Source of the DNA: Candidatus Aenigmatarchaeota archaeon
Lineage (GTDB): Archaea > Aenigmatarchaeota > Aenigmatarchaeia > QMZP01
Assembly: GCA_043824495.1 (NCBI GenBank)
Contig: JBDRSV010000024.1
Coordinates: 107,816 to 171,815, forward strand
Direction of reading: 5' to 3'
DNA: 64,000 nucleotides
Shown here: positions 927 to 61,740 of the stretch, piece by piece
Numbering within the stretch: the first letter of the stretch is position 1
Layout of the letters: every line of letters starts with the position of its first letter
Position numbers and translations under genes: made by a program
Notes under the pieces: model-generated
Seen by the model: only the letters and a program-made list of their open reading frames with translations
Told to the model about the DNA's origin: nothing
The model's database searches: none

Positions 927-963
927 GGGAGAGGTGCAGTATTCCACATCTGCACACTCTCCC
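927..963 (-). terminator. Bulged hairpin next to motif A (terminator-like for the gene at 995-2869)
   Basis: GGGAGAGGTGCAG (927-939) pairs with CTGCAC-A-CTCTCCC (950-963); TTT follows on the minus strand. Confidence 0.65.
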
Positions 964-994
964 ACCACATCACCTTTTCAGGCTTTGCAGATTT

Positions 995-2869
995 TTACTT
1001 CAGAAGCGTCATCTTTTTGCTTTCCGTCAGGCTGGCCGTTTGCAACCGATAGAAGTACATACCGGACGCGACGGCCTTACCGTAGCGGTCGGTTCCGTCC
1101 CAGCTAACCTGATGTGTTCCTTCGGGCTGGGACCCGTTGACGAGAGTGGCAACGTTGCGGCCGAGGATATCAAAGACCTCTAGCTTTACGTCTCCTCCCT
1201 GAGTCAACTGATAGGAAATCACGGTTCCGGCGTTGAAGGGGTTCGGGTAGTTCTGGTTCAAGCTGAATGATGTAGGAACGGCTCCTGTTGTCTTGTACGC
1301 GATGTTCAGCGTACCTAATGGAATCCACCCAGCCGGAACTGTCCGGCTGTTGTTGATCTCGTCAGCTATCGTTTTGGCCAACTCGTGATCGCCGAATGGA
1401 TCGTCGATCAAGTTGTCGCAGTATGTTACCGCCTGTGACACAGTCGCGCCGTCATCGCTAATCACAGCGGTTTGTGCCAGTTTGCCGCTAGCGACATTGA
1501 GTAGCAAAGCCATGAGTTGCTGTCTGGCTCGATCAATCATGTCAACGCTGCCCTTGAGGTTCAGCAACGTCTTCGCGACTTCGAGCTTGTCTTCACAAAG
1601 ATCCGACACGGGTGGATCGTACACGACGACCTCGTTCACTGCGTTCGAGTTGAAGTGGCCCGCGATGAGGTCGAGATAGCTACACAGAGTTGAAGCATCG
1701 ATTTGCGCGCGGCCATTCCCACCAGTAGCGACGCCGACGTTGTGTTTCCAGAAGCCGATTGTTCGTTGTTCTCCAGCGTCTGACGGGCATCCCAATTCAA
1801 AGTCGATTTGGGCTGTGCCTTCACAATCGAGATCGACGGACTGTTCGCTCGGAAATGCCGTATACCCGAGGGGGCCAACAAATGATACCATGTAGCTGGC
1901 CTCACCCGGGAGGTTCTCGAAATCGTAGTAACCGGCTTCATCAGTCACAGCCGATTCTACAAGTACACCGGTGGCATCGAAGACATCAATCGTGATACCA
2001 AGAACAGAGCAGTCAGCACTCAGTGTGCCCTCAATTGCGGCGAAGCATTCTTCCTCTCCACCTCCGCATGCACACGTTCCATCTTCCACCTCAATGGCGG
2101 TGATGGTGTTGTCGTAGGCGTCCTTTGACCAGACGACGGTCAACGGCGCGAAGTTGATGACGTCGCATTCGAGATCCTCATCCCGACCACCGATCGTCGC
2201 GAAGTCACTGAGATACACGCCCGTTGTCTTGTCAATGCGAACGATGTTGCCCAGACCATCGCGCCCGATGTAAAGGGTGTTCCCCGTCCCAACAATAACA
2301 CCACTTATTCGATCCAGTGTATTGCCGGCCGCGTCGGTCGGATACAACGTTCCCAGATAGGCTCCCGAGCCCGCATCGAAGTGGTCAATGCCCGTTGATA
2401 CATCATCGGAAACCCAGACACTGTTATCCGTCGCATCAAAGCCAATGCCGTCGATGAAACAGAAGCCCGGTGTTACCACAGAAAACTGGAAAGTGGCTAC
2501 GCCGGTGGTGGGATCGATGAGATACACGTTCGCCGGACATTCGTTGTCACTGCCTCCCCAGATCATGTTGCGCGTATTGTCCCATGCAATAGCGCCGATC
2601 GAAACTGGTGTGCCATCCGGTTTGAAAATGGAAACGAAGCCGAGATCGGTGCCGAATTTGTCTATCGAGTAGAGAGTTGGGTCGAAAGAGTTGGTGTAGA
2701 AAATCACACCATCACATCCAACTGCAACACCGATACCGACACCAGACGAGCTTGGAACAGGAACTGTGACGTTCGTGATGACATCACCGGGAGCTGCCAT
2801 TGACGTAGCGGTGATAGCGGTGAAGAGGCAGAACACAACAAGCGCAGTGAAAGCTGTGAGACGCTTCAT
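995..2869 (-). CDS. Secreted protein: beta-propeller-like region, SdrD-B/CarboxypepD-reg-like Ig domain, C-terminal FlgD-Ig/T9SS-type sorting domain
   Basis: Signal peptide; C-terminus FSLNQNYPNPFNAGTVISYQL...EVFDILGRNVATLV...WDGTD...VASGMYFYRL...KKMTLLK. Confidence 0.85.
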   Translation of the reverse strand: MKRLTAFTALVVFCLFTAITATSMAAPGDVITNVTVPVPSSSGVGIGVAVGCDGVIFYTNSFDPTLYSIDKFGTDLGFVSIFKPDGTPVSIGAIAWDNTRNMIWGGSDNECPANVYLIDPTTGVATFQFSVVTPGFCFIDGIGFDATDNSVWVSDDVSTGIDHFDAGSGAYLGTLYPTDAAGNTLDRISGVIVGTGNTLYIGRDGLGNIVRIDKTTGVYLSDFATIGGRDEDLECDVINFAPLTVVWSKDAYDNTITAIEVEDGTCACGGGEEECFAAIEGTLSADCSVLGITIDVFDATGVLVESAVTDEAGYYDFENLPGEASYMVSFVGPLGYTAFPSEQSVDLDCEGTAQIDFELGCPSDAGEQRTIGFWKHNVGVATGGNGRAQIDASTLCSYLDLIAGHFNSNAVNEVVVYDPPVSDLCEDKLEVAKTLLNLKGSVDMIDRARQQLMALLLNVASGKLAQTAVISDDGATVSQAVTYCDNLIDDPFGDHELAKTIADEINNSRTVPAGWIPLGTLNIAYKTTGAVPTSFSLNQNYPNPFNAGTVISYQLTQGGDVKLEVFDILGRNVATLVNGSQPEGTHQVSWDGTDRYGKAVASGMYFYRLQTASLTESKKMTLLK

Positions 2870-3415
2870 GGATTTTTATTCCTTAGGTTGTGAGGGAAAT
2901 ATGACCCTCCGGGTTTGTTTTTCGATTAGTTTCTGATTGTTTGTCGTTTACCACGTTTCCAAGTTAAGGTCCGCGAATCGCTATTTTCATTGGCATCCTC
3001 TCTTTGGGTTAATGTTGTCCGCACAAATTGCGGGATTAAAAGAAGGAAAGACACAAAAGATAGAGTATGTCTTATGTAGACTGAGAGTAAAATCATTCGA
3101 AGAATAAAGCTAATACTATTAAAACAAACATGCATGTTTGATGTGTTTCTTTTCATGTTTTTTGTGTTAGCCAATGTACCGTTTCTATGGTTAATTGGAT
3201 TGATTGAGTTGCAATCAATACAAATTTAAATGATGTTCGAATGAGTAGCATGATTTAAATTGTATACAAAAATTGACGTTGATTCATCGTCGTTTTTTTG
3301 TGTTTTGGTATTTTTTTTGATTCTAGCTTGTCGCTTTTGTCAAGTCTTTAACTCAAGTATATAGCTTACAGGTATTTAAATGTTTTCTAACACATTTTTT
3401 TTAATTTTCTTTCTT

Positions 3416-3437
3416 TTATCCCTTTAAATAGACATAT
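3416..3437 (+). repeat. Island-edge motif, copy B (variant)
   Basis: TTATCCCTTTAAATAGACATAT, followed by a bulged hairpin at 3443-3506. Confidence 0.85.
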
Positions 3438-4408
3438 AAAAAGGCAAACGGGCGAAGATTTGGAGCCAAACTCTTCTTGATGTCTCACCTCCGCCCGTTA
3501 AATGCCGTTGTCCGGCCTATCAATTTACCCGCCGGTTAGGTGAGCACATGTGCTCGTGTCCCAGAGGCGCATGTTTTCATGCCCTCCTTTGCCGGGTTCT
3601 TACGCGAACGTGCTGCTTGACCGAGATAATGTAGCTGCCAGATTCCCCACAACCTTGTTATTGGTGGAACCGCGACAGCGGTCGGTCCAGTCCGTATGCA
3701 TCGTAGCCTCACTTGGTGAAGGACTGCGAATCAAGAGACGGGGATTCAGAAGAATCCCCGTCTCACGAGTTGACGGTTGGTACGAGATATATCAAAGGAA
3801 GTCTTTATGCCATTGGGTGCATTCCGAAACCTTTAGCCTCGTCCGTCTCCGAGGGATCCTATCAAAGGTTTCATAAAGGAAATTTCATGGACCTCGTTAC
3901 GATAGGATCGGAGTGGCGTAAAGCCACGGCCAGAACCTCGAGGTCCCCCAGGATAAGATCACCGTTTGAATATGAGTCAGCGGTGAACGTAAGGGTGCTG
4001 GCGATTCTTCTTCGCATTCAAACCCTCCAGGGAACACTTCGTAATTTGTGTTGTCAGCGGCTGTTTACGAATCGGCGGTGATCGTTTCCACCACGGTACA
4101 TGTCGGCGTGGTGACAAACGATGAAGAAGCGACTTCAAAACGCGCGCGGCCATTGCTCGGCGGCGGCGAATGAGCCCAGGCATTGACGGCGGTCGCGGCG
4201 GTATTCATCCAGGAAGCGACCACTGGTGACCCGCGAAGGGTCGGTAATCGGTTCATAGAGCAAGCTCCATTTCTTCCGATAGGAAAATTCCAATCCACTT
4301 TACAAACTCTCGCCTAAACAGAAAGTATTGTCACATAACTTTCCGTCGCAAAAGAGAATGTGAAGAGGAAACAATTTCGTACACCTCGTCAAGAGATCGT
4401 CTCCATTT

Positions 4409-4774
4409 TCACCCTACATGGGCTAGGCGAGAGGATAGACCAGTTGCTGATAGAGATGTAGAGGGAACCGTTTTCATCCGAAGATCTCTCCCGTCCCTCA
4501 GGGAGTAAGTTGCTCGTCCACCAGGTTCCCATACCAAGGGAGCTGGCAACTCTGCCATTCTCTCTATCCGACTCTCTGTTGTCATCGCCACTACGGCAAC
4601 AACTCTTAGCCTATCCGGCGTAGGATTATGAGAGTGTAGAGCGAATTCCTCGTTCCATGTTTGTTCTGTATCGCTGCCTGTTATGATATCCAATCCTGAA
4701 AACGGGATTGGGTCAGCGGTATAAACAATACAGGAACCATATATGAGGTAGCAGAGTGTCATGATTCCCAGCAT
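4409..4774 (-). CDS. Hypothetical protein with a hydrophobic N-terminus (possibly truncated)
   Basis: AAGGAG lies upstream of the ATG; 121-aa ORF. Confidence 0.5.
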   Translation of the reverse strand: MLGIMTLCYLIYGSCIVYTADPIPFSGLDIITGSDTEQTWNEEFALHSHNPTPDRLRVVAVVAMTTESRIERMAELPAPLVWEPGGRATYSLRDGRDLRMKTVPSTSLSATGLSSRLAHVG

Positions 4775-4885
4775 GACAACTCCTTACAAGGGCACATGGT
4801 TATATGGTAAATGCTCTCTCCGTCAACAAATCGTGCCCTCTAAGACATGTTTAGGAGAGAAAGGCGACAACTCATGAAGTGTTCT

Positions 4886-5044
4886 TCAGGTGGACCCGTC
4901 ATCACTGTTATTGCGTTGACGGCCTTCTCCTTGACCCGGACTTAGACGTGTGGCTTTCGGTGTTTTCGCGGCGCGTTTCTGCTGTTTTGGACTACGCTTC
5001 TTGTTGCTCGGAAGCCCGTCTCGGGCACCACCGTGACACGTCAT
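4886..5044 (-). CDS. Possible small basic protein (52 aa)
   Basis: Manual translation MTCHGGARDGLPSNKKRSPKQQKRAAKTPK...; GAGG upstream. Confidence 0.25.
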   Translation of the reverse strand: MTCHGGARDGLPSNKKRSPKQQKRAAKTPKATRLSPGQGEGRQRNNSDDGST

Positions 5045-5674
5045 GAAAGACCTCGTTTGTGAGGAGTTCAGTTCAAGCTTGTGCTGGAACTGTTTGGAAC
5101 GAGGAATTGTTACTCTTTACGGCGAGCGATTGTGTGTCATCGTAACTCCTTGACAATGGTTTCCACAAGCTCCAAAATAAAAAAGAGCTGTTGTTTTCAA
5201 ATTCAGTTGGGAATCTCCTAGCCCGCCCCCAGAACTGACTAGAGGAGATCCCCAACTTTTGTACAGCGCACCCCGTGCATTGTTTTCAGGGTGGAGGGGC
5301 CCGGCGGTCAACTGAGCCCCTCACTGGACGAATCGGTCACAGATAACATGTTACGCATTACCGACTCGAAATCTATGCCACGGCAGTAGATGGAAGTGGT
5401 CGCATCTACCGCCGGGCTTCACGACGTTGTGCATTTTGTCGCCTTCAGCCTTACACAACGCCGTTATTTCCCCACCCACAGGGAATTTAATATCGCGGGG
5501 CCTCACTCAGGAGACCCCGCTTCCGTTGGGTTTACTACCGAATTGTTCGGTAGCGTTCTTCCACGACAGACATACGCACATGCGCACGTCTTCATTTCTT
5601 TGAGGACCTACTCATCTCCGATTTGAGTAGGTCCTCGGCTCCCCACAACCCCCCGATCAGCACCGGGAATTTTT

Positions 5675-6900
5675 TTGAGGGGAAATCTGAGCAGATATCT
5701 CAGACTCCCCTCCCGTCAGGTCTACCGACCAGCACTTCCGGTTGGACGCCGGAAATTCTTTATTAGAAGGGGTTTCCCCTCTCCAAGAAACCCCTTCCTC
5801 TTCGGCGTAGCGCGTCTCACGCGCTTTAGTGCATCGATCCCCACCGATCAGGTAAAACCCTTGGATGGTTCTCTCCCCGAACCCCCACTGAAATATTTTG
5901 GAACCCCTCATAGATCCCCGTAATCTCCGAGAGGTTCCGACAGCAGCACCATACAAATGGGACTACCGTGACAATCAAAAATACCGGAATCCACCGCGTC
6001 AGAAGAGGATTCCGGTATTCTACATCGCTGGTTGTGTTGAGAGCTTACCCCTTACTGGTCTTAACGAGTATGTTACGTCGGACTTCCTTTCACCAAATAT
6101 ACGGGTCACTACAGAATACCCGATCGATCCGCTTTGTTGTCTTAATCTCACCAGCGGATAGTGACGCGGTTACAGCCAGCGATTTCGCCTTTATACAACA
6201 GGCGTCTCCAAACCAAAATGGAAATTGGAGTTGTTGCTTCCACACTTCCGGATTTCCCCCTCCGGTAAACTCTAAGGTACTGATAGGTGACCGCTCGTGT
6301 TTCTTGTGTTCGCAATTGCCGATTGCATCAAGCTCTTCGTAGATCTAGATCTGGAAGTAATTAGCAAACGATCACAATAAACAGACAACTGGGAGAAGTC
6401 CATTTCTACCAGTACCTGGATTTTCTAACCCTCGGGAGGTGTGTACAAGCCTAAGCAGAGTTTGTCCTGTTGAATTGGCCCCGAGGGTAAGTGGCCTTCC
6501 GGAAGAGAATTGGTGAGGTCCTGTAACAGAACTCTATCTCATTCCGGGGTAAAGCTCAAGGCACAGCCAGAAGGAGACGTATTACCTTGAGAAGTTGGTC
6601 TCCCGAGTGAAGAAATTCGAGATGTCCCATCGATGAAGGACATCTCTTCTCCACTCGGGCTCATTCGTCAGCCTGGAAGGAGAAGTGCAAGAGTTTTCGC
6701 GCAATTACTCTCTCTCCTCCCGGGAAATTTATGACCTCCTGGTCCGAAACTTGTGCCGCGGTAAACCAGAAGGCGTAACTGCTAGGCTATGTGACGGCCA
6801 CAGCAGTAGGGATCGAATCCAATACACGAAAGACAGCTAAGACTAACTCTGTCTCGTGTGGTTTACGAGTAAAATTCAGAAATCGATAGTCTTCGGCCTC
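5675..6900 (+). pseudogene. Possible decayed gene of unknown family
   Basis: Protein-like stretches in successive + frames (FYIAGCVESLPLTGLNEY..., ETYYLEKLVSRVKKFEM*RTSLL...REIYDLLVRNLC) interrupted by stops and frame changes. Confidence 0.3.
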
Positions 6901-7189: not shown

Positions 7190-9232
7190 TTAACCAATGA
7201 ATTCAACCTTTTCAAAACTGCCGTTTTCTTCAAATTTGTCTAATGTTGATACGAAAATTATTACTTTTTTCTTGTCTTCTTTACAGATTCTAGCTGCTTG
7301 TTGTATTACCATGTTCTTGATTCTGTCTGAAGCACATATGAAATGATTGCTTTGTTTCAAGTCCTGATAAATTAATTCTCTATCATCTGTGTCTTCAACC
7401 ATTATAGTTAATTCTTTTCCATCGTTCTGTAAATATATTCTGTTACCTTCTTGTTCACTCTTCCATCCGACTTCATTAAAGGTCTGCATGATACCTGTTA
7501 AGTTCAATTCTTTTTTCTGTGTTGAGTTACCAAATTTATTAGTGAAAACTTTCTCTCCTATATTTGTAAGAAAGTAATAACATAATCTATTCTTCTTAAC
7601 TTTAGCATCAGCTGAATCAACTAATCCGTTATAAGTTAAGTTCTCAACCTTTTTCTTGAAAGTTGCTCCTGACATTTTTACATTTGTGTATATCTGAGAT
7701 GTGTAAGCAGCACTACCATTACCAATGGTTTTCATCATAGCCCACTCTTGTTCTCCTAAATCCTCAATTGGAAGAGAGTTTATGAATTCTTCTTCCTTTA
7801 CTGGAGGAGGTGAGTAGCTATCTTCTTTAGCTATTCTGTCTTTCATGTGCTCTCTGATATCATCATCTACAATAGAGTTCTTAACCAGTTTAGCCTTGTC
7901 GAATTTTACAAGGAATGGTTCTGGGAAATTCATAGAGTGTCTCAAAAGCATGAAACCGTGACCTACTGGCAGTCTTCTTAGATACTTACCTTCTTCTCTA
8001 GAATCAAGACCAAGCATGTTTGAAGCGTCTTGAATATCTGAAGTATGTTTTGTATCCAAACCTAGATTCATGTATATATGAGTAGAAGTATTACCAATTG
8101 CTGGATATGAAACTAAAGATGGATGCTGATCTATGTATATCATTCCTAATCCTAATTCTCTAATTTCTCTAAATATTAATTCTACAACGGTTTCTGATCC
8201 TAATTTGGCAGATTTTTCTCTGTTAAGAACATGATGAGCTTCTTCCATCACTATACATCCTATGACTTCTTCTTTTCCGCCTTCTACGAGTAACCAATCT
8301 CTTATCCACTGTAGAATTATTTCTATGATAAAGCTCTTATCATTAACATCAAGAGCATCTAATTCTAGAATTGTTACCTTTCCTTTCTTGAAGAAATCAG
8401 ATGGTTTTATACCTTCTACACAGTCGAATATATGACCTGTGTCTTTGAAGCATAATGACTCTAATGGTCTTTCAGCTGTTGCTAACCAGTTTCTTTCTCT
8501 TGTTGGCAGCTTACCTTCTGCATATTCTGCTAAGTAATCTTTAAGGTCAAACAGTGTTGGATTTTTCTTTTCCTTGAAAACTCCATCTAAAGCTTTCAAG
8601 ATTACGTGTCTTCCACCACCGAGTAACCAGTAAGAATGATCGAATATTGAAGAGAACTCTTTCATCCACTGTGTTTGACTAATTCCTTTAGGACCTTTCA
8701 GTGGATTGAATTTGAAAGGAGCTACGCCTCTTCCGATTGTGTAAATATCTATTTTGTCTTTAATTTTAGTTGATAGTAAATCTTTATAATTTCTCTTAGA
8801 GAAATCAAATATCAAAACAGGAATATCCTTTTCTGCTAATTCTTCAATTAAGTTATATGAAATATTTGTTTTACCATAACCAGATGAACCAAATATTCCT
8901 ATATGTGTAAGTAAGTTTTTCTCTTCTAGCATGATTGGATATAAACCCTTTCTTCCGTATAAAACATCACCTAATCTAATTGTTCCTTTAGCTGCTGCTT
9001 CTTGGCTAGGAGGTTCCATTAGTACTGTATCTCTTAGATCTTCATCAGCAGAAACTGCGGCTTTTATAACATCAAGTAGTTCGAAGATTCTTTGTCTTAC
9101 ATCTTCGTTTCCAACTAAGTAAGCTTTACTTAATCTCAAAGCTTTGTCTTTACCCAAGATTGGAGTAAGCTTCTTAATTTCATCTGCAATTAGTTTTTCT
9201 TGAATATTAATCATTTGTACCACCCAAATCAT
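7190..9232 (-). CDS. HerA/VirB4/FtsK-like ATPase (DUF87-type) with C-terminal winged HTH
   Basis: Walker A GSSGYGKT, Walker B IVMEEAH, REIRELGLGMIYIDQHPS, RRLPVGHG; host-like composition. Confidence 0.85.
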   Translation of the reverse strand: MIWVVQMINIQEKLIADEIKKLTPILGKDKALRLSKAYLVGNEDVRQRIFELLDVIKAAVSADEDLRDTVLMEPPSQEAAAKGTIRLGDVLYGRKGLYPIMLEEKNLLTHIGIFGSSGYGKTNISYNLIEELAEKDIPVLIFDFSKRNYKDLLSTKIKDKIDIYTIGRGVAPFKFNPLKGPKGISQTQWMKEFSSIFDHSYWLLGGGRHVILKALDGVFKEKKNPTLFDLKDYLAEYAEGKLPTRERNWLATAERPLESLCFKDTGHIFDCVEGIKPSDFFKKGKVTILELDALDVNDKSFIIEIILQWIRDWLLVEGGKEEVIGCIVMEEAHHVLNREKSAKLGSETVVELIFREIRELGLGMIYIDQHPSLVSYPAIGNTSTHIYMNLGLDTKHTSDIQDASNMLGLDSREEGKYLRRLPVGHGFMLLRHSMNFPEPFLVKFDKAKLVKNSIVDDDIREHMKDRIAKEDSYSPPPVKEEEFINSLPIEDLGEQEWAMMKTIGNGSAAYTSQIYTNVKMSGATFKKKVENLTYNGLVDSADAKVKKNRLCYYFLTNIGEKVFTNKFGNSTQKKELNLTGIMQTFNEVGWKSEQEGNRIYLQNDGKELTIMVEDTDDRELIYQDLKQSNHFICASDRIKNMVIQQAARICKEDKKKVIIFVSTLDKFEENGSFEKVEFIG

Positions 9233-9755
9233 TAAAGATCTTTAAGATCTTATTTTCTGTTTGTAGTTGTTCCAGGAGCTCTCTTAGCTCTGTTTTTAAT
9301 TCTAATCCATCTCTCCAAAAAAGAATATTTTCTTGTCTTTTTTCTTTTCTGAGAATAGAAACATCAAGTTTGAAATTTCTCTTTTCATCGATGTCTGTGA
9401 TATGATTCATCATATCGTCTTTTTCTTCGATGTCTTCTTCAATTTCTTTTAAGAATGTTTTGTGGAGAACTTCTCTTTCTTTCATAGTGTTTTCAATTTC
9501 ACTAACTCTTATTTGCAAGAATTCTACTTTATCGAATAAGCTTCCAATAACTAGAGGATCATCTCTTTTTAGAGCAGTGAGTTTACTTTCTTCAAATCTT
9601 GGCATTGATCTTTTCTTAATAATTTGAACTTCTCTAACTTCGGGTTCATCTAGATCAATCTCATCATGTCTAATTAAAGACTCACGTCTTCTCTTTTTTG
9701 TAATGTCTTCATACTCGTCAAGAGTTTTATAATAGGGTTCCATTAATCTGTCCAT
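9207..9755 (-). CDS. Charged coiled-coil hypothetical protein, coupled to the ATPase
   Basis: 182-aa E/K-rich ORF overlapping the ATPase start. Confidence 0.75.
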   Translation of the reverse strand: MDRLMEPYYKTLDEYEDITKKRRRESLIRHDEIDLDEPEVREVQIIKKRSMPRFEESKLTALKRDDPLVIGSLFDKVEFLQIRVSEIENTMKEREVLHKTFLKEIEEDIEEKDDMMNHITDIDEKRNFKLDVSILRKEKRQENILFWRDGLELKTELRELLEQLQTENKILKIFNDLGGTND

Positions 9756-10617
9756 AATAATTACCTCGAGTGACCATTTGTCACTATCTGATAGTTAAAA
9801 TATGTATAAAGGGTTTATAAAGCTTTCGGTTAGCTTGCAGTGTGCTGTTTTTGAGCGTAAAAATCGTGTACGAAAGACAATTTTCTTGGGTTTCCATGAC
9901 TTTTGTGCCAACGAAAGACATATTCTGTCTTTAGTAAGAGAGTTAATAAAGATTTCTGTCTCGCGCCTTATAAAGGATCCGAATTGGATATTTTATATAG
10001 TAATTAATTACTATTGTAGAGATCTTTATTTACTTAAGTCTTTACATAAATAATTCTCAAATACTTTTTGTCTTTGCTAAAGTTTAATGCAGATTTTCCT
10101 CGAAACTTTTGTGGAAATTCTTGAAATCAAATGTCTTCTAGTTTTGCTAGAGCTTTTGAAGACATGGAAACTCTCATAAAACCCCAACCGAAAAGTATTT
10201 AAACCCTTTGACTATAATTTCACTATAGATTAGTGACAACAAATTAAGAAATGTCTGAGTTATGTGTGGTGTCAAATCCTACATAACTATCTTTACAATC
10301 TACGCAACTTTGAATAAAAAGAATTTCGGGTTAAACTCGCAATTCTAAACTCAGAGAAATTGAGTGCACAGGAATTTAGGCGCGGCCTAAAATCCCCATA
10401 AGAAATCCAAAAAAATGACACGCTTTGTGTCAAAAAATGTGATTTGAGGGGGTTTGATTTCCTTAGCTCTGAGTATCTACTTTTCGAAAACCACGAAGAC
10501 TCGCGTAACAATTCTAAGCAATAAATATAGTGAAATTCCAGACTTCTGTAGACTTTCGCTGTCTGACATAGAAATTAACAAGTTGACAATAAACGGAAAC
10601 TTCTGGGAGGGATTGTC

Positions 10618-10980
10618 ATGAGAAATATCATGAGCTGTGTTTTCCTGCTGCTCACATTATTCCTGGTGAGTTGTGCGAAAAGTGGTCCGGAGCTGGGGAG
10701 TGATATCCGGATCAGTGGAACAATCGTCGACATGAGCGAAGGAGGTAGTAGGGATTTCCTGATCCAGTCCGGAGGAAAACTCTACCATTTCGGTACTCGA
10801 CTGCAATTTAAATGGAGTAAACTTCGTGCGGGACATTACGTCACCGTGGATGGGAAGTTTGGGGGACCGTGCGAGGAAGCCTCAATGTTCAGACGCTACA
10901 TGTACGACGACGAAGGGAACTTCATCAAGTCCCTCGAGGTCTATGACATCATCCATGTTTCGAACGTGGAGAGGCAGTGA
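10618..10980 (+). CDS. Putative lipoprotein
   Basis: Lipobox FLVSC after a hydrophobic stretch; GGAGG SD. Confidence 0.7.
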   Translation: MRNIMSCVFLLLTLFLVSCAKSGPELGSDIRISGTIVDMSEGGSRDFLIQSGGKLYHFGTRLQFKWSKLRAGHYVTVDGKFGGPCEEASMFRRYMYDDEGNFIKSLEVYDIIHVSNVERQ

Positions 10981-11109
10981 TCCCACTGAGTTCATCCAAT
11001 TCATCGGGTGGACCCAGATGAGATTATTGTCTAAAGGCTAAATCAGCAGGCCTTGAATTGTTGGTAGGGATCATTGGAAGATTCCCAAAAACATGGCAAG
11101 GAGGGCAAC

Positions 11110-11262
11110 ATGTCGCAGGGAACCAAAAACACCAAAGACACAGGAACAAGAGCGTTTCTGGTTATCGACGGAACTACAGGAGACCTCATTCCTGTGAAAG
11201 CATCGTCTGGACGAAAAGCTGAGCAAATCGCCGGCAGCGTAACCAGACAATCCCGCAAATAA
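11110..11262 (+). CDS. Small hypothetical protein
   Basis: GGAGGGCAACATG start (MSQGTKNTK...); the ORF track starts at 11074. Confidence 0.45.
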   Translation: MSQGTKNTKDTGTRAFLVIDGTTGDLIPVKASSGRKAEQIAGSVTRQSRK

Positions 11263-11342
11263 AATTACCCACTGTGAATTCCCCAGGAGTATCATCCGCC
11301 CGGAAGATACTCTGTTCTCCCCCATACTACCATAGGCCACAC

Positions 11343-11480
11343 GGAGCTCATCAGGTTTTCACTTGGTGGGCTCCAGTGAGATCTTTGGTGGTTAACGTTC
11401 CATAACCGTTTCATTCACAACCTTTTGCCGACCTTGTCTGCATTGCAGCTCAAGGAAGTGTGTAAAGGAAGGAGAGTGTC
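11343..11480 (+). repeat. Intergenic module type 1, copy 1 (GAGCTCA...GGTGGGCTC hairpin + CCATAACC...CTTTTGYCGACC hairpin + AAAGGAAGGAGA)
   Basis: Aligns with 15853-15997. Confidence 0.8.
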
Positions 11481-12182
11481 ATGTTATTGCATGTAACAGT
11501 AATAAGCCGCGGAGACAGAACAACGATCGATGTTCCCAGAACAGAATTCAACTGGGATACCAATCAATGTCGCGTAGTTGAAGGTGCAGAGGAAGCTGAA
11601 AGAAATCTCGGGGTGGCGGAGAATCTCGAAATCCGTAAACCCGCGGCTTACCAGGGACCCTATTTATACTGTATTGTAGAGGTGGGGTTCGAGGAAATTT
11701 GTTTTCCCCCGACTTTCCTCAAGTGGATCGAGAATGTTCCCGAGGATGAGAAAAGAGCCATCCTTATCGTTCCCACCAAAACCATCCGAAAGGCCGATGA
11801 TAGTCACTATATGGGATCTATAGATCGTTATAGGTATTATCCTCATGGTGAAGTCTTCCTGATTGGTCGCAGAATCATCGTGAGGAACATCTACCTATCA
11901 CCTGATAACATCAAGATGGTGGTGGATAAAATCCTTGCCCGACTGAGTGACGGCCTGTTCCTCCGGTTGGCCTTTGAGTTTCTCCAGGCTACGCCGATCA
12001 GTGACAATCCTACGGTGACTGGAGAACATATCACCATGTTGGATAATCTCTTCACGGGGACGCGTTCCCTTCGGAGAGGAGATTCAACTCGTCGCGAACG
12101 GTTCAATCATGTTCGGGCCGTGATTGGACATATGGCCAAACACGGGATAGTTCTGTCTGGCAAGATCGAACCCGTGAAGTAA
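11481..12182 (+). CDS. Hypothetical protein
   Basis: 233-aa ORF with strong SD AAGGAG. Confidence 0.75.
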   Translation: MLLHVTVISRGDRTTIDVPRTEFNWDTNQCRVVEGAEEAERNLGVAENLEIRKPAAYQGPYLYCIVEVGFEEICFPPTFLKWIENVPEDEKRAILIVPTKTIRKADDSHYMGSIDRYRYYPHGEVFLIGRRIIVRNIYLSPDNIKMVVDKILARLSDGLFLRLAFEFLQATPISDNPTVTGEHITMLDNLFTGTRSLRRGDSTRRERFNHVRAVIGHMAKHGIVLSGKIEPVK

Positions 12183-12223
12183 TCAACGGCTTGGAAACCA
12201 AGTCAAATCAACGACAATGAAAG

Positions 12224-12556
12224 TTGAGGTGTAATATGAATAGGCGAATACAGAGTATGATTGTGATGACTGCGACTTTGATAGCTGTTGCAGTCTTTCT
12301 CCAAGTCTCACAGCTTCACGCGGCACATTTGATGGCAACCGCAATTGCAATTGCGGTTGTGGTGATGATCGTTGTTAACATGGGAAGAGTTCCCAACACT
12401 CGGCAGAAGTTTCGGAACTTCTCTGTCGGAGCCGTTTTCGGGAGCATCTTCCTGTGGGAGTTGTTCAAGGTTACGTTCTTGAATCACCCTGCGGCTCTTT
12501 GGAGTGTGGTTGTACTCGGAGCTGCGGCAGTCTCATTTCTGACGTTCCGCCGGTAG
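12224..12556 (+). CDS. Small 4-TM membrane protein
   Basis: Hydrophobic segments; the likely start is the ATG at 12236. Confidence 0.7.
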   Translation: MRCNMNRRIQSMIVMTATLIAVAVFLQVSQLHAAHLMATAIAIAVVVMIVVNMGRVPNTRQKFRNFSVGAVFGSIFLWELFKVTFLNHPAALWSVVVLGAAAVSFLTFRR

Positions 12557-12570
12557 TACTGAAGTTCACC

Positions 12571-12618
12571 GGGGATCCCGATCAATCTGGTTGGGATCCC
12601 CTCAACCTGACAATAAAC
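12571..12618 (+). repeat. Intergenic module type 2, copy 1 (GGGGATCC hairpin + CAAC(C/T)TGACAAT(A/T)AAC)
   Basis: Aligns with 13482-13529. Confidence 0.85.
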
Positions 12619-12627
12619 TGTTGTTAA

Positions 12628-13473
12628 ATGTTCCATTACACCAAGGAGGGCGCAATGCGTCACCAACGTTTCATCACCACAGTACTGGCACTCATGTTCT
12701 TGACTGTGCCGGCAATGTTCAGCAGTGCGGTTCTGGCCGATCCGATTTCATCCGGAGACGGTCAAATGTATGTGGTCCAACAGGGAGATTGGTTGACGCG
12801 GCCGATCATCCCGACACTCTACTCGGATGTGTTGAAGCCAGGCGACTTGAAGAGTGCTCTCTGGATCGCTGACATCTTCGATACACTCAACATTAACATC
12901 ACCCACCGCGACAAAATTCGGGCGTATGATACCATCATGGCGCCGTCATTCGCGGCGTTGAAGAAGTACAAACATCTCGCACCCGCCGACGTGGTCATCA
13001 ACCTGTTCGCCACGTATGATATCGCGTCCATGGAACTTGTGGACGCCGAGTTTGTAAGAAAGCGCATCGAGGACTTTGAGGGTACTTACTGGTACAAAAA
13101 TCGAGCCGCGTGGGCCCGAATTTTCGGAGTCGGTAATGGCACGTATGTCTGCGGTGACACCGTGATGCCGTTCTCATGGTTCATGAGCTGCAATACGGAC
13201 GGTAATACGGGAATGACTATCTCCATCTCCATGGACGAAGGAGATCTCACCGCAGTTCGCAAGGTTCCAGGTACACGTAACGGATTCTGGGGAGCCAGTC
13301 GTGACAATAAGTTCACATACGTGGGCTTCGGCAACGACTGGATCGATCGTTGCGACTGGAATGACGAGACCGAGAGCTGGGACATTCCACCAGTTCTGAA
13401 TGAGATCGTCGGAACTCTCAACAACTTTCCATTCGTCCAGTATATGACCGTCGTCGCGTACGAACTGGAATAG
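12628..13473 (+). CDS. Secreted protein with a LysM-like start; paralog of 13535-14899
   Basis: Signal peptide LALMFLTVPAM...LAD; YVVQQGDWL; shared NTDGN and C-terminal pattern; likely start 12655. Confidence 0.75.
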   Translation: MFHYTKEGAMRHQRFITTVLALMFLTVPAMFSSAVLADPISSGDGQMYVVQQGDWLTRPIIPTLYSDVLKPGDLKSALWIADIFDTLNINITHRDKIRAYDTIMAPSFAALKKYKHLAPADVVINLFATYDIASMELVDAEFVRKRIEDFEGTYWYKNRAAWARIFGVGNGTYVCGDTVMPFSWFMSCNTDGNTGMTISISMDEGDLTAVRKVPGTRNGFWGASRDNKFTYVGFGNDWIDRCDWNDETESWDIPPVLNEIVGTLNNFPFVQYMTVVAYELE

Positions 13474-13481
13474 TTGTTACA

Positions 13482-13529: not shown

Positions 13530-13534
13530 GTAAC

Positions 13535-15269: not shown

Positions 15270-15332
15270 TGTAAATGATTGTTGACTGTTCAATGAGCGT
15301 TCCGAAAGGAACATTGCAAGGAGATTTTTATC

Positions 15333-19486: not shown

Positions 19487-19523
19487 AATTCCGTACAGGT
19501 GTTTACAAAATCTGTGCGGGATT
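19487..19523 (+). terminator. Hairpin next to motif C
   Basis: AATTCCGTACAGG pairs with TCTGTGCGGGATT (G-U pairs on the + strand). Confidence 0.55.
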
Positions 19524-19526
19524 TGT

Positions 19527-19547
19527 ATTGTCTAATTAAAGGGATAT
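19527..19547 (-). repeat. Island-edge motif, copy C
   Basis: ATTGTCTAATTAAAGGGATAT, the reverse complement of the consensus. Confidence 0.9.
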
Positions 19548-19630
19548 AAGAGTTAAGGCTTTGCACAAAAACTCTGTTTTACACAAAAACTGTGCTTAGC
19601 CTAAAAAATTCAAGAAAAAGGAGGTGAAGC

Positions 19631-40191: not shown

Positions 40192-40207
40192 TTTTTTATA
40201 ACCTTCT

Positions 40208-40228
40208 ATATCCCTTTAAATAGACAAT
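40208..40228 (+). repeat. Island-edge motif, copy D
   Basis: ATATCCCTTTAAATAGACAAT; bulged hairpin at 40232-40272. Confidence 0.9.
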
Positions 40229-40303
40229 ATAAAGGGGAAAGTGTGATTGGTGGTCACACTTTTTCTCCCCTTGTAGCACCCGGAGAAGCTGCTCGCGTTG
40301 CAG

Positions 40304-40768
40304 TTAATCGTCGAGGTCGAGATCCTGAATGGGACCGTCTGCGGGATCGATCGCCTTGTCGGTACATGTGAACTCATTGCCGTGACCCTCACCGAAGTTG
40401 GCTCGGGCCGTGATCTGGAACGTGCCGTCTGTTGACGCCGCGGGGACAATTGTGGTAGGCGAAGTAACCGCGAAGAACATTGTGTCCTTGGACCCACTGG
40501 CAGGAGCAGGTTTGAACTCGATCGTTGTGTCGCTGTCGCCATAGTCGAAGCGGGCAGCGGGAGCCAATGAGCGAGTTAAACTGCTACTGCGAAAGGCTTC
40601 AATGCCTCCGGACAAACCGAGGTCGATAGCCTTGTCCCTGGCGATCTTCTCGATTGTTGTGCTTCTTACGTCTACTTTTACATCATTCAGAACTGTGTCC
40701 CCGAACTTCAGGTTGATTTTAATGCTGTCGGCCACGATACCCCTCCGTTTCTGCGTGATCAATGTCAC
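40304..40768 (-). CDS. Hypothetical protein (Ig-like, acidic)
   Basis: 154-aa ORF. Confidence 0.6.
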   Translation of the reverse strand: MTLITQKRRGIVADSIKINLKFGDTVLNDVKVDVRSTTIEKIARDKAIDLGLSGGIEAFRSSSLTRSLAPAARFDYGDSDTTIEFKPAPASGSKDTMFFAVTSPTTIVPAASTDGTFQITARANFGEGHGNEFTCTDKAIDPADGPIQDLDLDD

Positions 40769-40776
40769 GTCTGTGA

Positions 40777-41322
40777 TTAGTCCTTCTCAGCCTTCTGAAG
40801 TTTCAGACAAATGGTCTCACCGTCAGTTGCGTGGTCGTAGTCAAATGTAGTCGCAAATTTGGCGCTCCCGATCTTGATTCGAGCGTGAATCTGACACTTC
40901 TTGGGAATACTCGGGAGAGTTATCTCCCCACGAATGATCGTAGAGCCGCCTTCAGTGTCCTCATCATCTATCTTGAAGTAGACGATGGTCCCATTCGGAG
41001 TTGCGATACAGTCATCGCCGTGGCATACTTCGGCTTTGACGGTGACTGAAGCACGAACAAAGTCGAGATCGAAATCGGTGTTCCCATCAGCCGTGTCATA
41101 ATCCAGACGTGCTTCGTACAACTCGCCGTCGATTGTTACGAATGCTTCAAGCGATCCAGCCGCGAGGACGCCCATTAAGACGATGATACCGTTTTCTTTC
41201 ACGGTGGCACGATTTTCTTCGCTTGCGTCGCCTGCGTCATTACCAAATAATACTGAGATGCCTTTTGGTATTAGCTCAGTATCTTCGTAATAGGCGGTCA
41301 GTTGAAGTGTCGTTTTATCCAT
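40777..41322 (-). CDS. Hypothetical beta-rich acidic protein with two internal repeats
   Basis: Repeated pattern (ARLDYDTADG / TTFDYDHATDG); GGAGG SD. Confidence 0.7.
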   Translation of the reverse strand: MDKTTLQLTAYYEDTELIPKGISVLFGNDAGDASEENRATVKENGIIVLMGVLAAGSLEAFVTIDGELYEARLDYDTADGNTDFDLDFVRASVTVKAEVCHGDDCIATPNGTIVYFKIDDEDTEGGSTIIRGEITLPSIPKKCQIHARIKIGSAKFATTFDYDHATDGETICLKLQKAEKD

Positions 41323-41367
41323 TTATCCTTTGCCCTCCTTGTATGGTTTGCCTGTTCCATATAGGCG

Positions 41368-42270
41368 TTATAAACTGACTGTCACAAGAATGTGGTGTGA
41401 CTTGTCCCCATATTCACTTTGGCGCATTGGCAAGAGCATTACTCTACCAATCTTGCCTCCTATATAGTACCAGGAGGATTTAACACCGAACTCGTATCCG
41501 CCTCCGAGAAGAAGGAGGTATTTCCCATGCTGCCAGGCAAACGCCTTGTCAGCACCGATTCCAACATTTCCGGATTTCGTATCACCGAAGGTCTCAAAGC
41601 CCAGGCCGTGGAAGAGGCCAACAGAACTAGAGAAGACCCATTTACCCTTTCTGAAGTTCTGGTAGGCATCGAATCGTGTAGCTTGAATTCTTGCAGATCT
41701 CAGAAAACCGAGAACTGATGATTCTTTGTGATTAAGTTTCCATTCAAACCTGGTTCCAAAGTCCAAGTCCCACATGTTCTGGGATGGTTCGGTGATCCAT
41801 ATGGGACCGCCAGGAATGTACTCGGTTCCGGGAGCAATGAAATTGACAGTTCTCGTTCTCACCCAGATTCTTCGAGCCCCGATAGCAAGTCGAAATTTTC
41901 CAGGAAGAACTCCGAGAGCAAACCGAATATTCGTCGTTGTGGCGATTTTTTGGAAGTCGGTCTGTGCAGGTGGTACGCCTTCTGATTGAGTGTAACCACC
42001 GAGACCCATTAGAGTAAAGCTAGTCTCGGTACCCAGTGGGCGGAGAAGGAACGGGAGCTTGTACGAGGCTCCAGATTCTATTACCCAGAAATCTGTCCGC
42101 GAACCATACATCCCGTCTGTTGGGGTCTTGAGAATGTAGGTGAAGACTGACGAGTTGTCGTAAATTGGTGGTGGTTTGGCATCCACTTTCACCGGAGACA
42201 CTACCACCACAAACAGTGTCACTGCTGCGATGATGTTACGCATCGAGACCCTCGCGATAACTTTATGCAT
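41368..42270 (-). CDS. Secreted protein resembling an outer-membrane beta-barrel
   Basis: Signal peptide; alternating aromatic/Gly strands; C-terminus HILVTVSL. Confidence 0.55.
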   Translation of the reverse strand: MHKVIARVSMRNIIAAVTLFVVVVSPVKVDAKPPPIYDNSSVFTYILKTPTDGMYGSRTDFWVIESGASYKLPFLLRPLGTETSFTLMGLGGYTQSEGVPPAQTDFQKIATTTNIRFALGVLPGKFRLAIGARRIWVRTRTVNFIAPGTEYIPGGPIWITEPSQNMWDLDFGTRFEWKLNHKESSVLGFLRSARIQATRFDAYQNFRKGKWVFSSSVGLFHGLGFETFGDTKSGNVGIGADKAFAWQHGKYLLLLGGGYEFGVKSSWYYIGGKIGRVMLLPMRQSEYGDKSHHILVTVSL

Positions 42271-42503
42271 CGAAACCCCCTTGGCTGAACGCCGTGACCG
42301 AGTCTATAGAAATCTCTCTACTTCTATCTCAACACGAAAGACGATTTACTTGACTTTCGTGATTAAGTGGTTACCTAAATACAAATACCAGCACTGAGAT
42401 GAGATTAATCTTCTCAGATAAATGCTGGGTTAAAGGTGTGTTTAGTTGAAAAACATGAATATAGAGGATTCTTGATAATAAACTTTTAAAAAGTAGGTGA
42501 ACC

Positions 42504-60782: not shown

Positions 60783-60822
60783 TTACAGAATCGAGGCTTG
60801 ACTCACAAAGAAGGAGGACGTC

Positions 60823-61551
60823 GTGGCAAATCATGGCGATCTCAACGGTGCTGCCATAAGTAAACTTAATGAAATTCGTAGGCAGCTCGATCAGGTTCAT
60901 GGATATCCATTCGACCCGGTAGGTCTCAACGAAGCACTCAGAGTCATCGCAGCAGGAGAATTCGATGCTCTTTCCACATCACATGAACTGATAGTTCATG
61001 TAGGAGACGCTGAAGCCGCTCTCAAACGCATCAGGGGCGCCACTCCAGAGACAGTGATAATGCACGTCCCAAATAACCATGAAGCTTCTCTCAGGGTGTG
61101 TGAACGTAGCTTCGAGGAGCTTTTGAGGGACTTCCCGCGGCACTTGACAACTTGGAGGTGTCGGAAAGTCACGGACGACGATCAATTGAGCGTCATGGTT
61201 CGTCTTGTGAAACTCTCACGTGACATGAGCTTTAGAGAGTTCGTGAGGTTCTTCCGTTCAATCGGCCTCAGACCCGCGAAGCTCCGCACACTTGGAGCAT
61301 TCATTGGTGCGTATCCAAAACTTTTGGGAAGCGCAGAAGATCCTTTCTGTACTCTCGCACCTGGGAATAACTTCGGAGCATTATCGCGACACTGTCCATT
61401 GAGTGGGTCGGAATACATTCCTTACACCTCGTGGTCATCCAAAGATGATCGTTTGTTGCTTCTAACATATTACCTCTTTCGCAAAGAGGAGAAGATGCGA
61501 GCGGATGATAGGGTTCTCATGGTGCCGACGAGTGCACCCGTGTGGATCTGA
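60823..61551 (+). CDS. Hypothetical protein resembling families common in Patescibacteria
   Basis: GGAGG SD; VRLVKLSRDMS...GLRPAKLRTLGAFIGAYPKLL pattern recognised from memory only. Confidence 0.65.
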   Translation: MANHGDLNGAAISKLNEIRRQLDQVHGYPFDPVGLNEALRVIAAGEFDALSTSHELIVHVGDAEAALKRIRGATPETVIMHVPNNHEASLRVCERSFEELLRDFPRHLTTWRCRKVTDDDQLSVMVRLVKLSRDMSFREFVRFFRSIGLRPAKLRTLGAFIGAYPKLLGSAEDPFCTLAPGNNFGALSRHCPLSGSEYIPYTSWSSKDDRLLLLTYYLFRKEEKMRADDRVLMVPTSAPVWI

Positions 61552-61581
61552 TCCAAAAACAGACCAACTAACCACGAATTC

Positions 61582-61610
61582 AACCAGTCAAGTTTCTTGG
61601 TTTTGTATGC
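61582..61610 (+). repeat. Direct repeat, right copy
   Basis: AACCAGTCAAGTTTCTTGGTTTTGTATGC (one extra T). Confidence 0.9.
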
Positions 61611-61683
61611 CGATGTTCACGCTAATAATCCTCCCGAATCATAGTCTCCAGGCAGAGGATTATTACATGTTGTAACGAATAAC

Positions 61684-61740
61684 AACCAGAGCAAGGTAAG
61701 TTCGCGTCTCGAAAGGATGCGGATCCTGCTCTGGTTTTTT
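61684..61740 (+). terminator. Bulged hairpin + T-tract next to motif E
   Basis: AACCAGAGCA-A-GG ... CCTGCTCTGGTT followed by TTTT. Confidence 0.7.

What the first reader, a model, noticed from the sequence alone, without database searches (positions are those of the whole stretch)
927..61740. A hairpin of variable sequence but similar shape abuts each edge motif, with a bulge on the same arm in 4 of 5 copies
Seen in sequence: hairpins at 927-963, 3443-3506, 19487-19523, 40232-40272 and 61684-61736 share no sequence but all end 3-15 nt from the motif. Read in cargo-gene orientation, A, B, D and E carry an unpaired bulge on the 5' arm near the stem base (T; TTT; AGAA; A). Established: integron attC sites are recognised as folded ssDNA through extrahelical bases and vary in sequence. 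Intrinsic terminators give a simpler hairpin + U-tract explanation. Inference: these could be non-canonical attC-like substrates, or terminators that define where captured units end.
Basis: partly seen in the sequence, partly recalled or inferred. Interest (0 to 1): 0.7.

Follow-up and report, generated by a model that had tools for sequence, protein, structure and literature searches.

The report
Terminator hairpins closing imported gene cassettes
The hairpins are real, but they look like ordinary transcription-terminator stem-loops at the ends of foreign gene blocks in a tiny archaeon, each joined very precisely to a 27-base relic of a jumping-gene end, and they do not look like integron attC recombination sites.

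Summary
All five hairpins exist where stated. On the cargo-sense strand they fold at -18.5 to -30.4 kcal/mol, with 0 of 200 shuffles as stable.

The pattern is general. In 89 of 120 non-redundant copies of the edge motif, an unrelated stem-loop sits directly before it. These copies come from this genome, related Aenigmatarchaeota-type MAGs and metagenomes. Typical geometry is a median 16-bp stem and a 6-nt loop, then 2-5 T, RTAT and TGTCTAWTTAAAGGGATATA.

The bulge regularity does not hold. The 5':3' arm count is 9:2 in this genome but 12:10 elsewhere. Half of the hairpins have no asymmetry, and bulge position varies from 3 to 18 bp from the stem base.

attC core sites (RYYYAAC/GTTRRRY) occur in 0 of 73 copies. 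The better-folding strand is the sense strand, partly through G.U pairs. The hairpins follow the last cargo stop codon, and host genes lack such structures.

The motif itself is the left inverted repeat of an archaeal IS6-type insertion sequence. Intact IS copies have no flanking hairpin.

Best reading: these are intrinsic-terminator-type stem-loops that close each imported transcription unit. Why the IS end is joined 2-5 nt after the stem remains unexplained.

The scan had already reported this cassette system and its IS6-derived box from other pieces of the same genome.

The parts
927..963 (-). Hairpin A, closing the T9SS-tail protein gene 995-2869(-)
   Evidence: -27.2 kcal/mol in the 56-nt sense window, z -5.2. 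It has a 1-nt 5'-arm bulge and a 1-nt 3'-arm bulge. The stop codon lies 25 nt before the stem.
900..926 (-). Box A, 27 nt (TTTGCAT TGTCCATTTAAAGGGATATA on the - strand)
3443..3506 (-). Hairpin B, at the end of the ORF-poor GC-rich block about 3435-6900
   Evidence: -28.6 kcal/mol, z -3.7. In cargo orientation its 3-nt bulge is on the 3' arm.
3415..3441 (-). Box B, 27 nt
19487..19523 (+). Hairpin C, closing the 8.9-kb plus-strand block about 10600-19480
   Evidence: -18.5 kcal/mol sense against -7.1 antisense. The stem depends on G.U pairs and has no bulge.
19522..19548 (+). Box C, 27 nt (TTTGTAT TGTCTAATTAAAGGGATATA)
40232..40272 (-). Hairpin D, closing the three-gene block 40304-42270(-)
   Evidence: -18.9 kcal/mol, z -3.3. 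It has a 4-nt GAAA bulge on the 5' arm.
40207..40233 (-). Box D, 27 nt
40195..42500 (-). Cassette D as a presence/absence unit: AT-rich leader, three GC-rich genes, hairpin and box
   Evidence: The same-genus genome G058 (contig C89) has the two flanking host genes end to end, with no box, hairpin, cargo or leader.
61684..61736 (+). Hairpin E, closing gene 60823-61551(+)
   Evidence: -30.4 kcal/mol, z -6.5. It has 1-nt and 3-nt bulges on the 5' arm.
61738..61764 (+). Box E, 27 nt
475..879 (+). Gene for a 134-aa Zn-ribbon + HTH protein (P0001), an IS6-transposase N-terminal module without a DDE domain. It is the candidate box-binding protein.
   Evidence: NCBIfam IS6 transposase positions 2-52, E 5e-5. 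It is 46% identical to the ORF that follows a box in L001 and 30% identical to a full IS6 transposase. It is single-copy in 24 of 47 genomes of the family and lies next to a box in four genera.
463..480 (-). Degenerate box copy just before the P0001 start codon, with no hairpin
   Evidence: Read directly (TATACCTCTTAATTGACA).

Best explanation
Each hairpin is the Rho-independent-terminator-type stem-loop at the 3' end of an imported, GC-rich, bacterial-style transcription unit.

It sits just after the last cargo stop codon. It is followed at once by 2-5 T, which run into the T-rich outer end of a 27-nt box (TTTRTAT TGTCTAWTTAAAGGGATATA). That box is the left inverted repeat of an archaeal IS6-type insertion sequence without its terminal G.

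The hairpin is a cargo-native RNA-level element: it ends or stabilises the transcript. It is not a folded-DNA recombination site.

Shown: the anatomy, the statistics, the IS6 origin of the box, and one empty site. Inferred: that transcripts end there, and that the small domesticated IS6 DNA-binding protein (P0001) binds the box. Not explained: the process that places the IS end 2-5 nt after the stem.
For: Hairpins are real and specific.
- Sense-strand z is -3.3 to -6.5 for the five window copies.
- Junction windows fold at -18.9 against -12.8 kcal/mol for GC-matched cargo windows, p 8e-14.
- 89 of 120 non-redundant box copies are of this type, with median MFE -18.6. The 14 intact-IS-type copies (GATAY|TGTC) have median -6.8, p 3e-7.

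Terminator geometry.
- In 62 of 79 hairpins the stem touches the T-run. T-run length has mode 3 and range 0-6.
- Median stem is 16 bp and median loop 6 nt.
- The last sense stop codon lies -3 to +30 nt before the stem in 12 of 19 copies.
- In the five window cassettes, cargo ORFs where present run toward the box. All 19 boxes in the genome border GC-rich DNA on the hairpin side.

Sense-strand (RNA-like) signature.
- The sense strand is more stable than the antisense in 49 against 16 copies, and the excess over cargo controls has p 0.023.
- Hairpin C folds at -18.5 sense against -7.1 antisense.
- In the one orthologous pair (L046/L072) the stem is kept through a G.U change, while the bulged A is present in one copy and absent in the other.

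Foreign-type feature.
- The 80 nt after host ORFs have mean z -0.24. After ORFs that have a box downstream the mean z is -2.89.
- GC-rich blocks also hold internal post-stop hairpins of the same build without any box.

Not attC.
- 0 of 73 copies have R''/R' cores, and there is no constant bulge arm or position.

IS6 origin of the box.
- L111 carries a complete element: the inverted repeat GATATTGTCAACTTAAAGGGATA, a Zn/HTH ORF1, and a DDE_Tnp_IS240 ORF2 at E 1e-12.
Against: - No RNA 3'-end evidence: the two metatranscriptome runs of the source study hold none of this stretch.
- From established knowledge, archaeal RNA polymerase terminates at oligo-T without needing a hairpin. The stems may therefore have no termination role in this host and may simply not have decayed yet.
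- A terminator alone does not explain why about 90 independent cassettes end within 0-6 nt of the stem, nor why three box copies abut tRNA 3' ends (chance P about 7e-7).
- Internal cargo hairpins mostly lack a T-run, so part of the T-tail may come from the box rather than the donor.
- Stems (median 16 bp) are long for typical bacterial terminators.
- This genome's own copies show a 5'-arm bulge skew (9:2) that I cannot explain.
Confidence: 0.65

Rival explanations
1. Structure-directed joining. The stem-loop, whether a terminator or a tRNA acceptor stem, is what the capture machinery recognises. An IS6-type end is inserted or joined at a fixed short distance 3' of a stable stem. The hairpin is then a terminator by origin but also the target determinant that sets the cassette boundary.
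For: - The junction is very tight: 62 of 79 stems touch the T-run, and the distance from stem to RTAT is 2-5 nt in 61 of 79.
- Three box copies lie 0-5 nt after tRNA genes: L074 tRNA-Met, L059 tRNA-Cys, and L028 tRNA-Gln. L028 is an intact-IS-type copy. Chance P is about 7e-7.
- A precedent exists for mobile elements sitting just after terminator stem-loops: group IIC introns (PMC1702495 abstract).
Against: - 13 of 14 intact-IS-type copies have AT-rich, unstructured flanks (median MFE -6.8), so the IS family as such does not target hairpins.
- No cognate DDE transposase is present in this genome.
- The four IS6 transposases found in the family showed no box-like ends, by a fuzzy box search of their four loci and by reading one end.
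- DDE transposases act on duplex DNA, and no hairpin-reading IS6 is described. Archaeal IS6 elements have no experimental data at all (PMC6807381).
Confidence: 0.2
2. RNA-templated capture. Cassettes derive from terminated or 3'-trimmed transcripts (stem plus a few U) that were copied into DNA and joined to the IS end. This would explain units 'cut to the shape of a transcript'.
For: - The boundary lies 2-5 nt after the stem, where trimmed terminated RNAs end (the RNA-end position is own knowledge).
- tRNA-Met in L074 is followed directly by TTT, like a primary transcript.
Against: - Cassette D carries about 190 nt of AT-rich, archaeal-looking leader that is absent from the empty site, so the unit that moves among archaea is DNA with a promoter region.
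- The 5' regions of E and A contain TTGACA-like boxes upstream of the Shine-Dalgarno sequence.
- There is no CCA after the tRNAs and there are no poly-A or template-switch marks.
- No mechanism is known that joins cDNA to an IS end.
Confidence: 0.07
3. Non-canonical attC-like site. The hairpin folds as single-stranded DNA and is recombined by a tyrosine recombinase that reads extrahelical bases.
For: - Variable sequence with conserved shape at the 3' end of each cassette.
- Tandem same-orientation cassettes in the window (A, B and one just upstream).
- A 5'-arm bulge skew in this genome, 9:2.
- Archaeal integrons exist, including attCs in Aenigmatarchaeota (PMC9668308).
Against: - 0 of 73 copies have R''/R' cores, where shuffles give 4.6 GTTRRRY hits.
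- The bulge arm is 12:10 outside this genome, 48% of hairpins have no asymmetry, and bulge position is not fixed.
- An orthologue loses the bulge.
- The sense strand folds better.
- The adjoining conserved sequence is a transposon inverted repeat.
Confidence: 0.03

Closest known systems
Bacterial intrinsic (Rho-independent) terminators
   Same: A GC-rich stem-loop of variable sequence placed just after the stop codon of the last gene, followed at once by a T-rich tail. It folds better on the sense strand through G.U pairs.
   Different: The tail is only 2-5 native T and then continues into a conserved IS-derived sequence. Stems are long (median 16 bp). The host is an archaeon, whose polymerase is not known to need hairpins. 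No 3'-end mapping is available.
Integron attC sites, including archaeal attCs (Ghaly et al. 2022, PMC9668308)
   Same: An imperfect hairpin of variable sequence at the 3' end of each gene cassette. Cassettes can lie in tandem. The system is a platform for cross-domain gene gain.
   Different: There are no R''/R' core sites, no constant extrahelical bases, and the wrong strand folds better. No integrase lies beside the array. The conserved flank is a transposon end.
IS6/IS26-family elements, translocatable units and solo inverted repeats (Harmer and Hall 2019, PMC6807381)
   Same: The 27-nt box equals the left inverted repeat of a complete element with a DDE_Tnp_IS240 transposase (L111). The cargo lies on the outer side of the repeat, as DNA beside an IS would.
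   Different: Only 27 nt of the IS remain and the terminal G is missing. No cognate transposase is in the genome. A stand-alone DNA-binding module is conserved instead. Archaeal 'IS6' elements are only distantly related to IS26 and have not been studied experimentally.
Group IIC introns inserted after terminator stem-loops (PMC1702495)
   Same: A mobile-element end lies immediately 3' of an inverted repeat followed by T's, whatever the stem sequence.
   Different: That system is a retroelement that reads the stem as single-stranded nucleic acid. Here the neighbouring sequence is a DDE-transposon repeat, and no intron or ribozyme is present (no Rfam hit in the window).

Membership tests
Integron attC site | Conserved inverse core sites R'' (RYYYAAC) and R' (GTTRRRY) at the base of the stem | tested here: not met
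   0 of 73 copies have an R''...R' pair on either strand. GTTRRRY occurs 0 times within -25..+27, against 4.6 expected from shuffles.
Integron attC site | Extrahelical bases at fixed positions on one arm (bottom strand) in every site | tested here: not met
   Pure bulges 5':3' are 21:12 overall and 12:10 outside this genome. 38 of 79 hairpins have no net asymmetry. Asymmetric elements lie 3-18 bp from the base. One orthologue lacks the bulge.
Integron attC site | The bottom strand is the better-folding, recombined strand | tested here: not met
   The cargo-sense (top) strand is more stable in 49 of 65 copies. Hairpin C folds at -18.5 against -7.1.
Integron attC site | Detection by IntegronFinder/HattCI models, and an IntI integrase acting on the site | not testable with these tools
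   These programs are not available here. No integrase gene was seen among the window's ORFs that I scanned.
Intrinsic terminator | A stable GC-rich stem-loop followed at once by a T/U-rich tract | tested here: met
   62 of 79 stems touch the T-run. The tail reads T(2-5)RTATTGTCT. Energies are -18.5 to -30.4 kcal/mol for the five window copies.
Intrinsic terminator | Position just downstream of the last gene of a transcription unit, on its sense strand | tested here: met
   The stop codon lies -3 to +30 nt before the stem in 12 of 19 copies. Cargo ORFs, where present, run toward the box in the five window cassettes, and all 19 boxes in the genome border GC-rich DNA on the hairpin side.
Intrinsic terminator | Transcript 3' ends map to the T-tract | not testable with these tools
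   The RNA runs X3 and X4 of the source study hold none of the stretch.
IS6-type terminal inverted repeat (for the box beside the hairpin) | The sequence forms the end of an element that encodes a DDE_Tnp_IS240 transposase, with an inverted copy at the other end | tested here: met
   In L111 the box is at 8521, ORF1 (Zn/HTH) is 8590-8883, and ORF2 (PF13610, E 1e-12) is 8885-9496. The right end reads GATACTGTCAACTTAA in reverse complement.
IS6-type terminal inverted repeat (for the box beside the hairpin) | An 8-bp target duplication, or a cognate active transposase in the same genome | tested here: not met
   No PF13610 match in this genome. Only a 6-bp AACCTT repeat flanks cassette D, which chance could give.

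The most novel reading that the evidence does not exclude
The cassette boundary is set by a process that reads the stem-loop or termination site itself. An archaeal IS6-type end, perhaps guided by the domesticated Zn-ribbon/HTH protein, is joined 2-5 nt after any stable stem followed by T's, whether a bacterial terminator or a tRNA. Foreign operons would then be trimmed to exactly one transcription unit and equipped with a protein-binding box. That would be an undescribed, terminator-coupled route for taking bacterial genes into DPANN archaea.
Probability: 0.2. Interest if true: 0.85.

Novelty: new variant of a known kind. Interest (0 to 1): 0.5.

Why it matters
The hairpins themselves are ordinary. 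Showing that removes the attC/integron reading from this system.

What remains unusual is the junction. About 90 independent foreign gene blocks, in a family of tiny symbiotic archaea, all end within a few bases of their own terminator stem. There they are fused to the same relic of a jumping-gene end, and a transposase-derived DNA-binding protein is conserved alongside.

If that precision reflects a mechanism rather than selection, it would give a concrete and testable route for cross-domain gene capture in DPANN archaea. It would also be a natural example of terminator-defined gene cassettes.

Tried and rejected
- **RNA evidence.** No RNA holder was listed. Runs X3 and X4 (same study) laid nothing on 39500-43500.
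- **Donor DNA.** The nearest relatives of the island A protein are Zixibacteria T9SS proteins at no more than 62% identity. I therefore could not test whether the donor carries the same hairpin.
- **Conserved left-end motif.** CTTTTAAYCC fits the 5' edges of A, D and E but not most other islands. No 9-mer is shared by more than 4 of 18 edges.
- **IS6 transposase.** None in this genome. The four in the family showed no box-like ends, by a fuzzy box search of their loci and by reading one end.
- **Viral contigs.** No box found.
- **Consensus promoter/terminator scan.** It missed A, B and C, and its total was not above shuffles, so it was not used.
- **Empty site for cassette E.** The syntenic contig of the same-genus genome ends before the site.
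Not built. The hairpins are unalignable, so a model would hold only the box.
- **IntegronFinder and HattCI.** Not available here.
- **Sigma-70 promoter and archaeal TATA readings of the box.** Considered at the start. Not pursued once the box proved to be an IS inverted repeat.


Full report
**Setting**

The window is contig C24:107816-171815 of a 1.01-Mb, 36% GC, 80%-complete MAG. Record titles of matching contigs from the same genus name it Candidatus Aenigmatarchaeota (L019 and L035 correspond to G058 contigs). Earlier notes of this scan say the same.

It occurs 18-19 times in the genome, with none for the reversed control.

Anchoring all 19 copies shows a sharply bounded 27-nt box, TTTRTAT TGTCTAWTTAAAGGGATATA. 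Information content collapses at -8 and at +20.

Every copy has 43-56% GC DNA on the hairpin side. In 18 of the 19, about 33-36% GC host DNA lies on the other side; the exception, C5:137366, is GC-rich on both sides.

**The observation**

On the cargo-sense strand the five hairpins fold at -27.2, -28.6, -18.5, -18.9 and -30.4 kcal/mol. Their z-scores are -5.2, -3.7, -4.7, -3.3 and -6.5, and no shuffle out of 200 is as stable. All 19 copies in the genome have such a stem ending at the box.

The box is present in 22 of 91 genomes of the order, and 20 of those are among the 46 genomes of one family. It is also present on 58 metagenome contigs. After removing near-duplicates I had 120 copies.

The 60 nt before the box fold far better than GC-matched windows 200-400 nt inside the cargo: -18.9 against -12.8 kcal/mol, p 8e-14. 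The GC of the two sets is 0.46 and 0.49.

The hairpins are unrelated to one another. An all-against-all search of 73 upstream stretches found a single orthologous pair.

**The bulge claim**

Read consistently in cargo orientation, A, D and E have a 5'-arm bulge and C has none. B's 3-nt bulge is on the 3' arm.

I used one procedure for all T-run-type copies, counting only elements flanked by helices of at least 3 bp.

| Set | Pure bulges 5':3' | p | Net asymmetry 5':3' |
|---|---|---|---|
| This genome | 9:2 | 0.065 | 8:1 (9 with none) |
| 61 hairpins from other genomes and metagenomes | 12:10 | 0.83 | 16:16 (29 with none) |
| All 79 | 21:12 | 0.16 | 24:17 (38 with none) |

Asymmetric elements lie anywhere from 3 to 18 bp from the stem base. 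In the one orthologous pair, the bulged A on the 5' arm is present in L072 and absent in L046.

The skew within this genome is unexplained. It may reflect a shared donor lineage or chance.

**attC membership**

No copy has an R''(RYYYAAC)...R'(GTTRRRY) pair on either strand. GTTRRRY is absent from -25..+27 in all 73 copies, where shuffles give 4.6.

The better-folding strand is the sense strand in 49 copies against 16. The excess over the compositional baseline of cargo windows (117 against 68) has p 0.023. Hairpin C exists essentially only on the sense strand, at -18.5 against -7.1.

These results fail three defining features of attC sites. IntegronFinder and HattCI could not be run.

**Terminator anatomy**

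- In 62 of 79 hairpins the last stem base outside the T-run touches the T-run.
- The T-run before RTAT has mode 3 and range 0-6. Its length varies, so these T's are not simply a fixed part of the box.
- The median stem is 16 bp, counting G.U pairs and A-T extensions, and the median loop is 6 nt.
- The last sense reading frame of at least 80 codons stops -3 to +30 nt before the stem in 12 of 19 copies.

Host (AT-rich) ORFs have no excess structure in the 80 nt after their stop codon: mean z -0.24, with 7% at or below -2.5. ORFs with a box downstream have mean z -2.89, with 60% at or below -2.5. GC-rich ORFs without a box are intermediate, with 16% at or below -2.5.

Several of those internal cases are perfect 11-16-bp post-stop stems of the same build, mostly without a T-run. 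Hairpin-after-stop is thus a native habit of the imported DNA, not of the host.

**What the box is**

The copies fall into two classes by the bases just before TGTC.

| Class | n | Sequence before TGTC | Upstream flank | Median MFE (-64..-5) |
|---|---|---|---|---|
| Intact-IS type | 14 | GATAY | AT-rich, unrelated, unstructured | -6.8 |
| Cassette type | 89 | hairpin, T-run, RTAT | 48% GC | -18.6 |

The remaining 17 copies fit neither pattern. The difference between the two classes has p 3e-7.

The intact-IS-type copies are followed by a conserved interior. L111 holds a complete element. It has the left end GATATTGTCAACTTAAAGGGATA and a 97-aa Zn-ribbon/HTH ORF1. A 203-aa ORF2 follows directly, matches DDE_Tnp_IS240 at E 1e-12, and is followed by a right end that reads GATACTGTCAACTTAA in reverse complement.

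The cassette box is therefore an IS6-type left inverted repeat lacking its terminal G. This agrees with earlier reports of the scan on other pieces of this genome. I reached the same result independently from metagenome loci.

Archaeal 'IS6' elements are only distantly related to IS26 and have no experimental data (PMC6807381). IS26 mechanisms cannot be assumed for them.

This genome has no DDE_Tnp_IS240 gene.

**The unit**

The same-genus genome G058 is syntenic around cassette D. There the VanZ-like gene and the convergent host gene meet end to end, with no box, no hairpin, no cargo and no AT-rich leader. The hairpin and box therefore come and go together with the cargo and its leader.

None of the eight G058 cassette ends resembles any end in this genome, so turnover is fast.

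**What stays open**

A terminator explains the shape, the position and the strand. It does not explain why about 90 independent cassettes end 0-6 nt after the stem.

Three box copies abut tRNA genes. In L074 the box starts at the base after tRNA-Met. In L059 it starts 5 nt after tRNA-Cys. In L028 an intact-IS-type copy starts at the base after tRNA-Gln. The chance probability is about 7e-7.

This suggests a joining process that favours the 3' side of stable stems, or termination sites. Group IIC introns, which sit just after terminator stem-loops, are a precedent (PMC1702495).

Against that idea, 13 of 14 intact-IS-type copies have unstructured flanks.

An RNA-templated route would also give transcript-shaped units. 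It is disfavoured by the promoter-bearing AT-rich leader that travels with cassette D.

I give the plain terminator reading 0.65. Structure-directed joining gets 0.2; it is compatible with a terminator origin. RNA-templated capture gets 0.07, and an attC-like site gets 0.03.

**Limits**

- No RNA data were available.
- Related genomes are not independent samples.
- Hairpin calls rest on energy models and on one trimming rule for bulges.

Noticed in passing
window 475-879 (+), with box A at 900-926: A 134-aa Zn-ribbon + HTH protein with no DDE domain ends 22 nt before box A. Homologues of about 100 aa (45-65% identity) are single-copy in 24 of 47 genomes of the family. They lie next to a box in four genera: G000, G047:C10, G026:C45 and G066:C62. 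Co-occurrence of box and protein is both 16, box only 5, protein only 6, neither 20. It matches ORF1 of the two-ORF IS6 element in L111. Earlier notes of the scan had already called it a domesticated IS6 DNA-binding protein.
   Followed up: partly
window 19549-19572 and 28691-28715; G000 C5:1324 and C11:7182; L112: A 9.15-kb cargo transposon (DDE_Tnp_1 transposase at 27268-28278, TIR GGCTTTGCACAAAAAC, 9-bp duplication AAGAGTTAA) starts 8 nt after box C. All three left-type TIR copies in the genome, and one on a metagenome contig, lie 6-8 nt after a box. The box seems to be a preferred landing site for a second, unrelated transposon family.
   Followed up: partly
window 3435-6900: The 'cargo' of cassette B is 3.4 kb of about 50% GC DNA with no stop-free frame longer than 142 codons in any of six frames, and no Rfam hit. 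It is either a decayed cassette or a large non-coding block.
   Followed up: partly
L074:1420-1520, L059:1416-1520, L028:4646-4741: Box copies directly abut the 3' ends of tRNA-Met, tRNA-Cys and tRNA-Gln genes, at 0, 5 and 0 nt. The last one belongs to an intact multi-copy IS.
   Followed up: partly
L111:8521-9520: A complete IS6-type element with the transposase split into a 97-aa DNA-binding ORF1 and a 203-aa DDE ORF2 that starts 2 nt after the ORF1 stop. The layout suggests programmed frameshifting of the IS1/IS3 kind.
   Followed up: no
window 13473-13530, 15797-15850, 17989-18040; G000 C5:132611, 136185, 140655: Inside the GC-rich blocks, several genes are followed by perfect 11-16-bp GC-rich stem-loops without a box and mostly without a T-run. 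This looks like a donor-lineage habit of post-stop hairpins.
   Followed up: partly
G000, all 19 box-adjacent hairpins: Within this one genome, bulges favour the 5' arm (9:2) and are often A/U-rich 3-5-nt bulges 8-12 bp above the base. The skew is absent in other genomes and is unexplained.
   Followed up: yes
window 42476-43149: A groundwater metagenome from a different study (run X2, 2018) holds read-length contigs identical to the host genes just outside cassette D, at about 2x depth. None lies on the cassette, but coverage is too thin to say the cassette is absent there.
   Followed up: no
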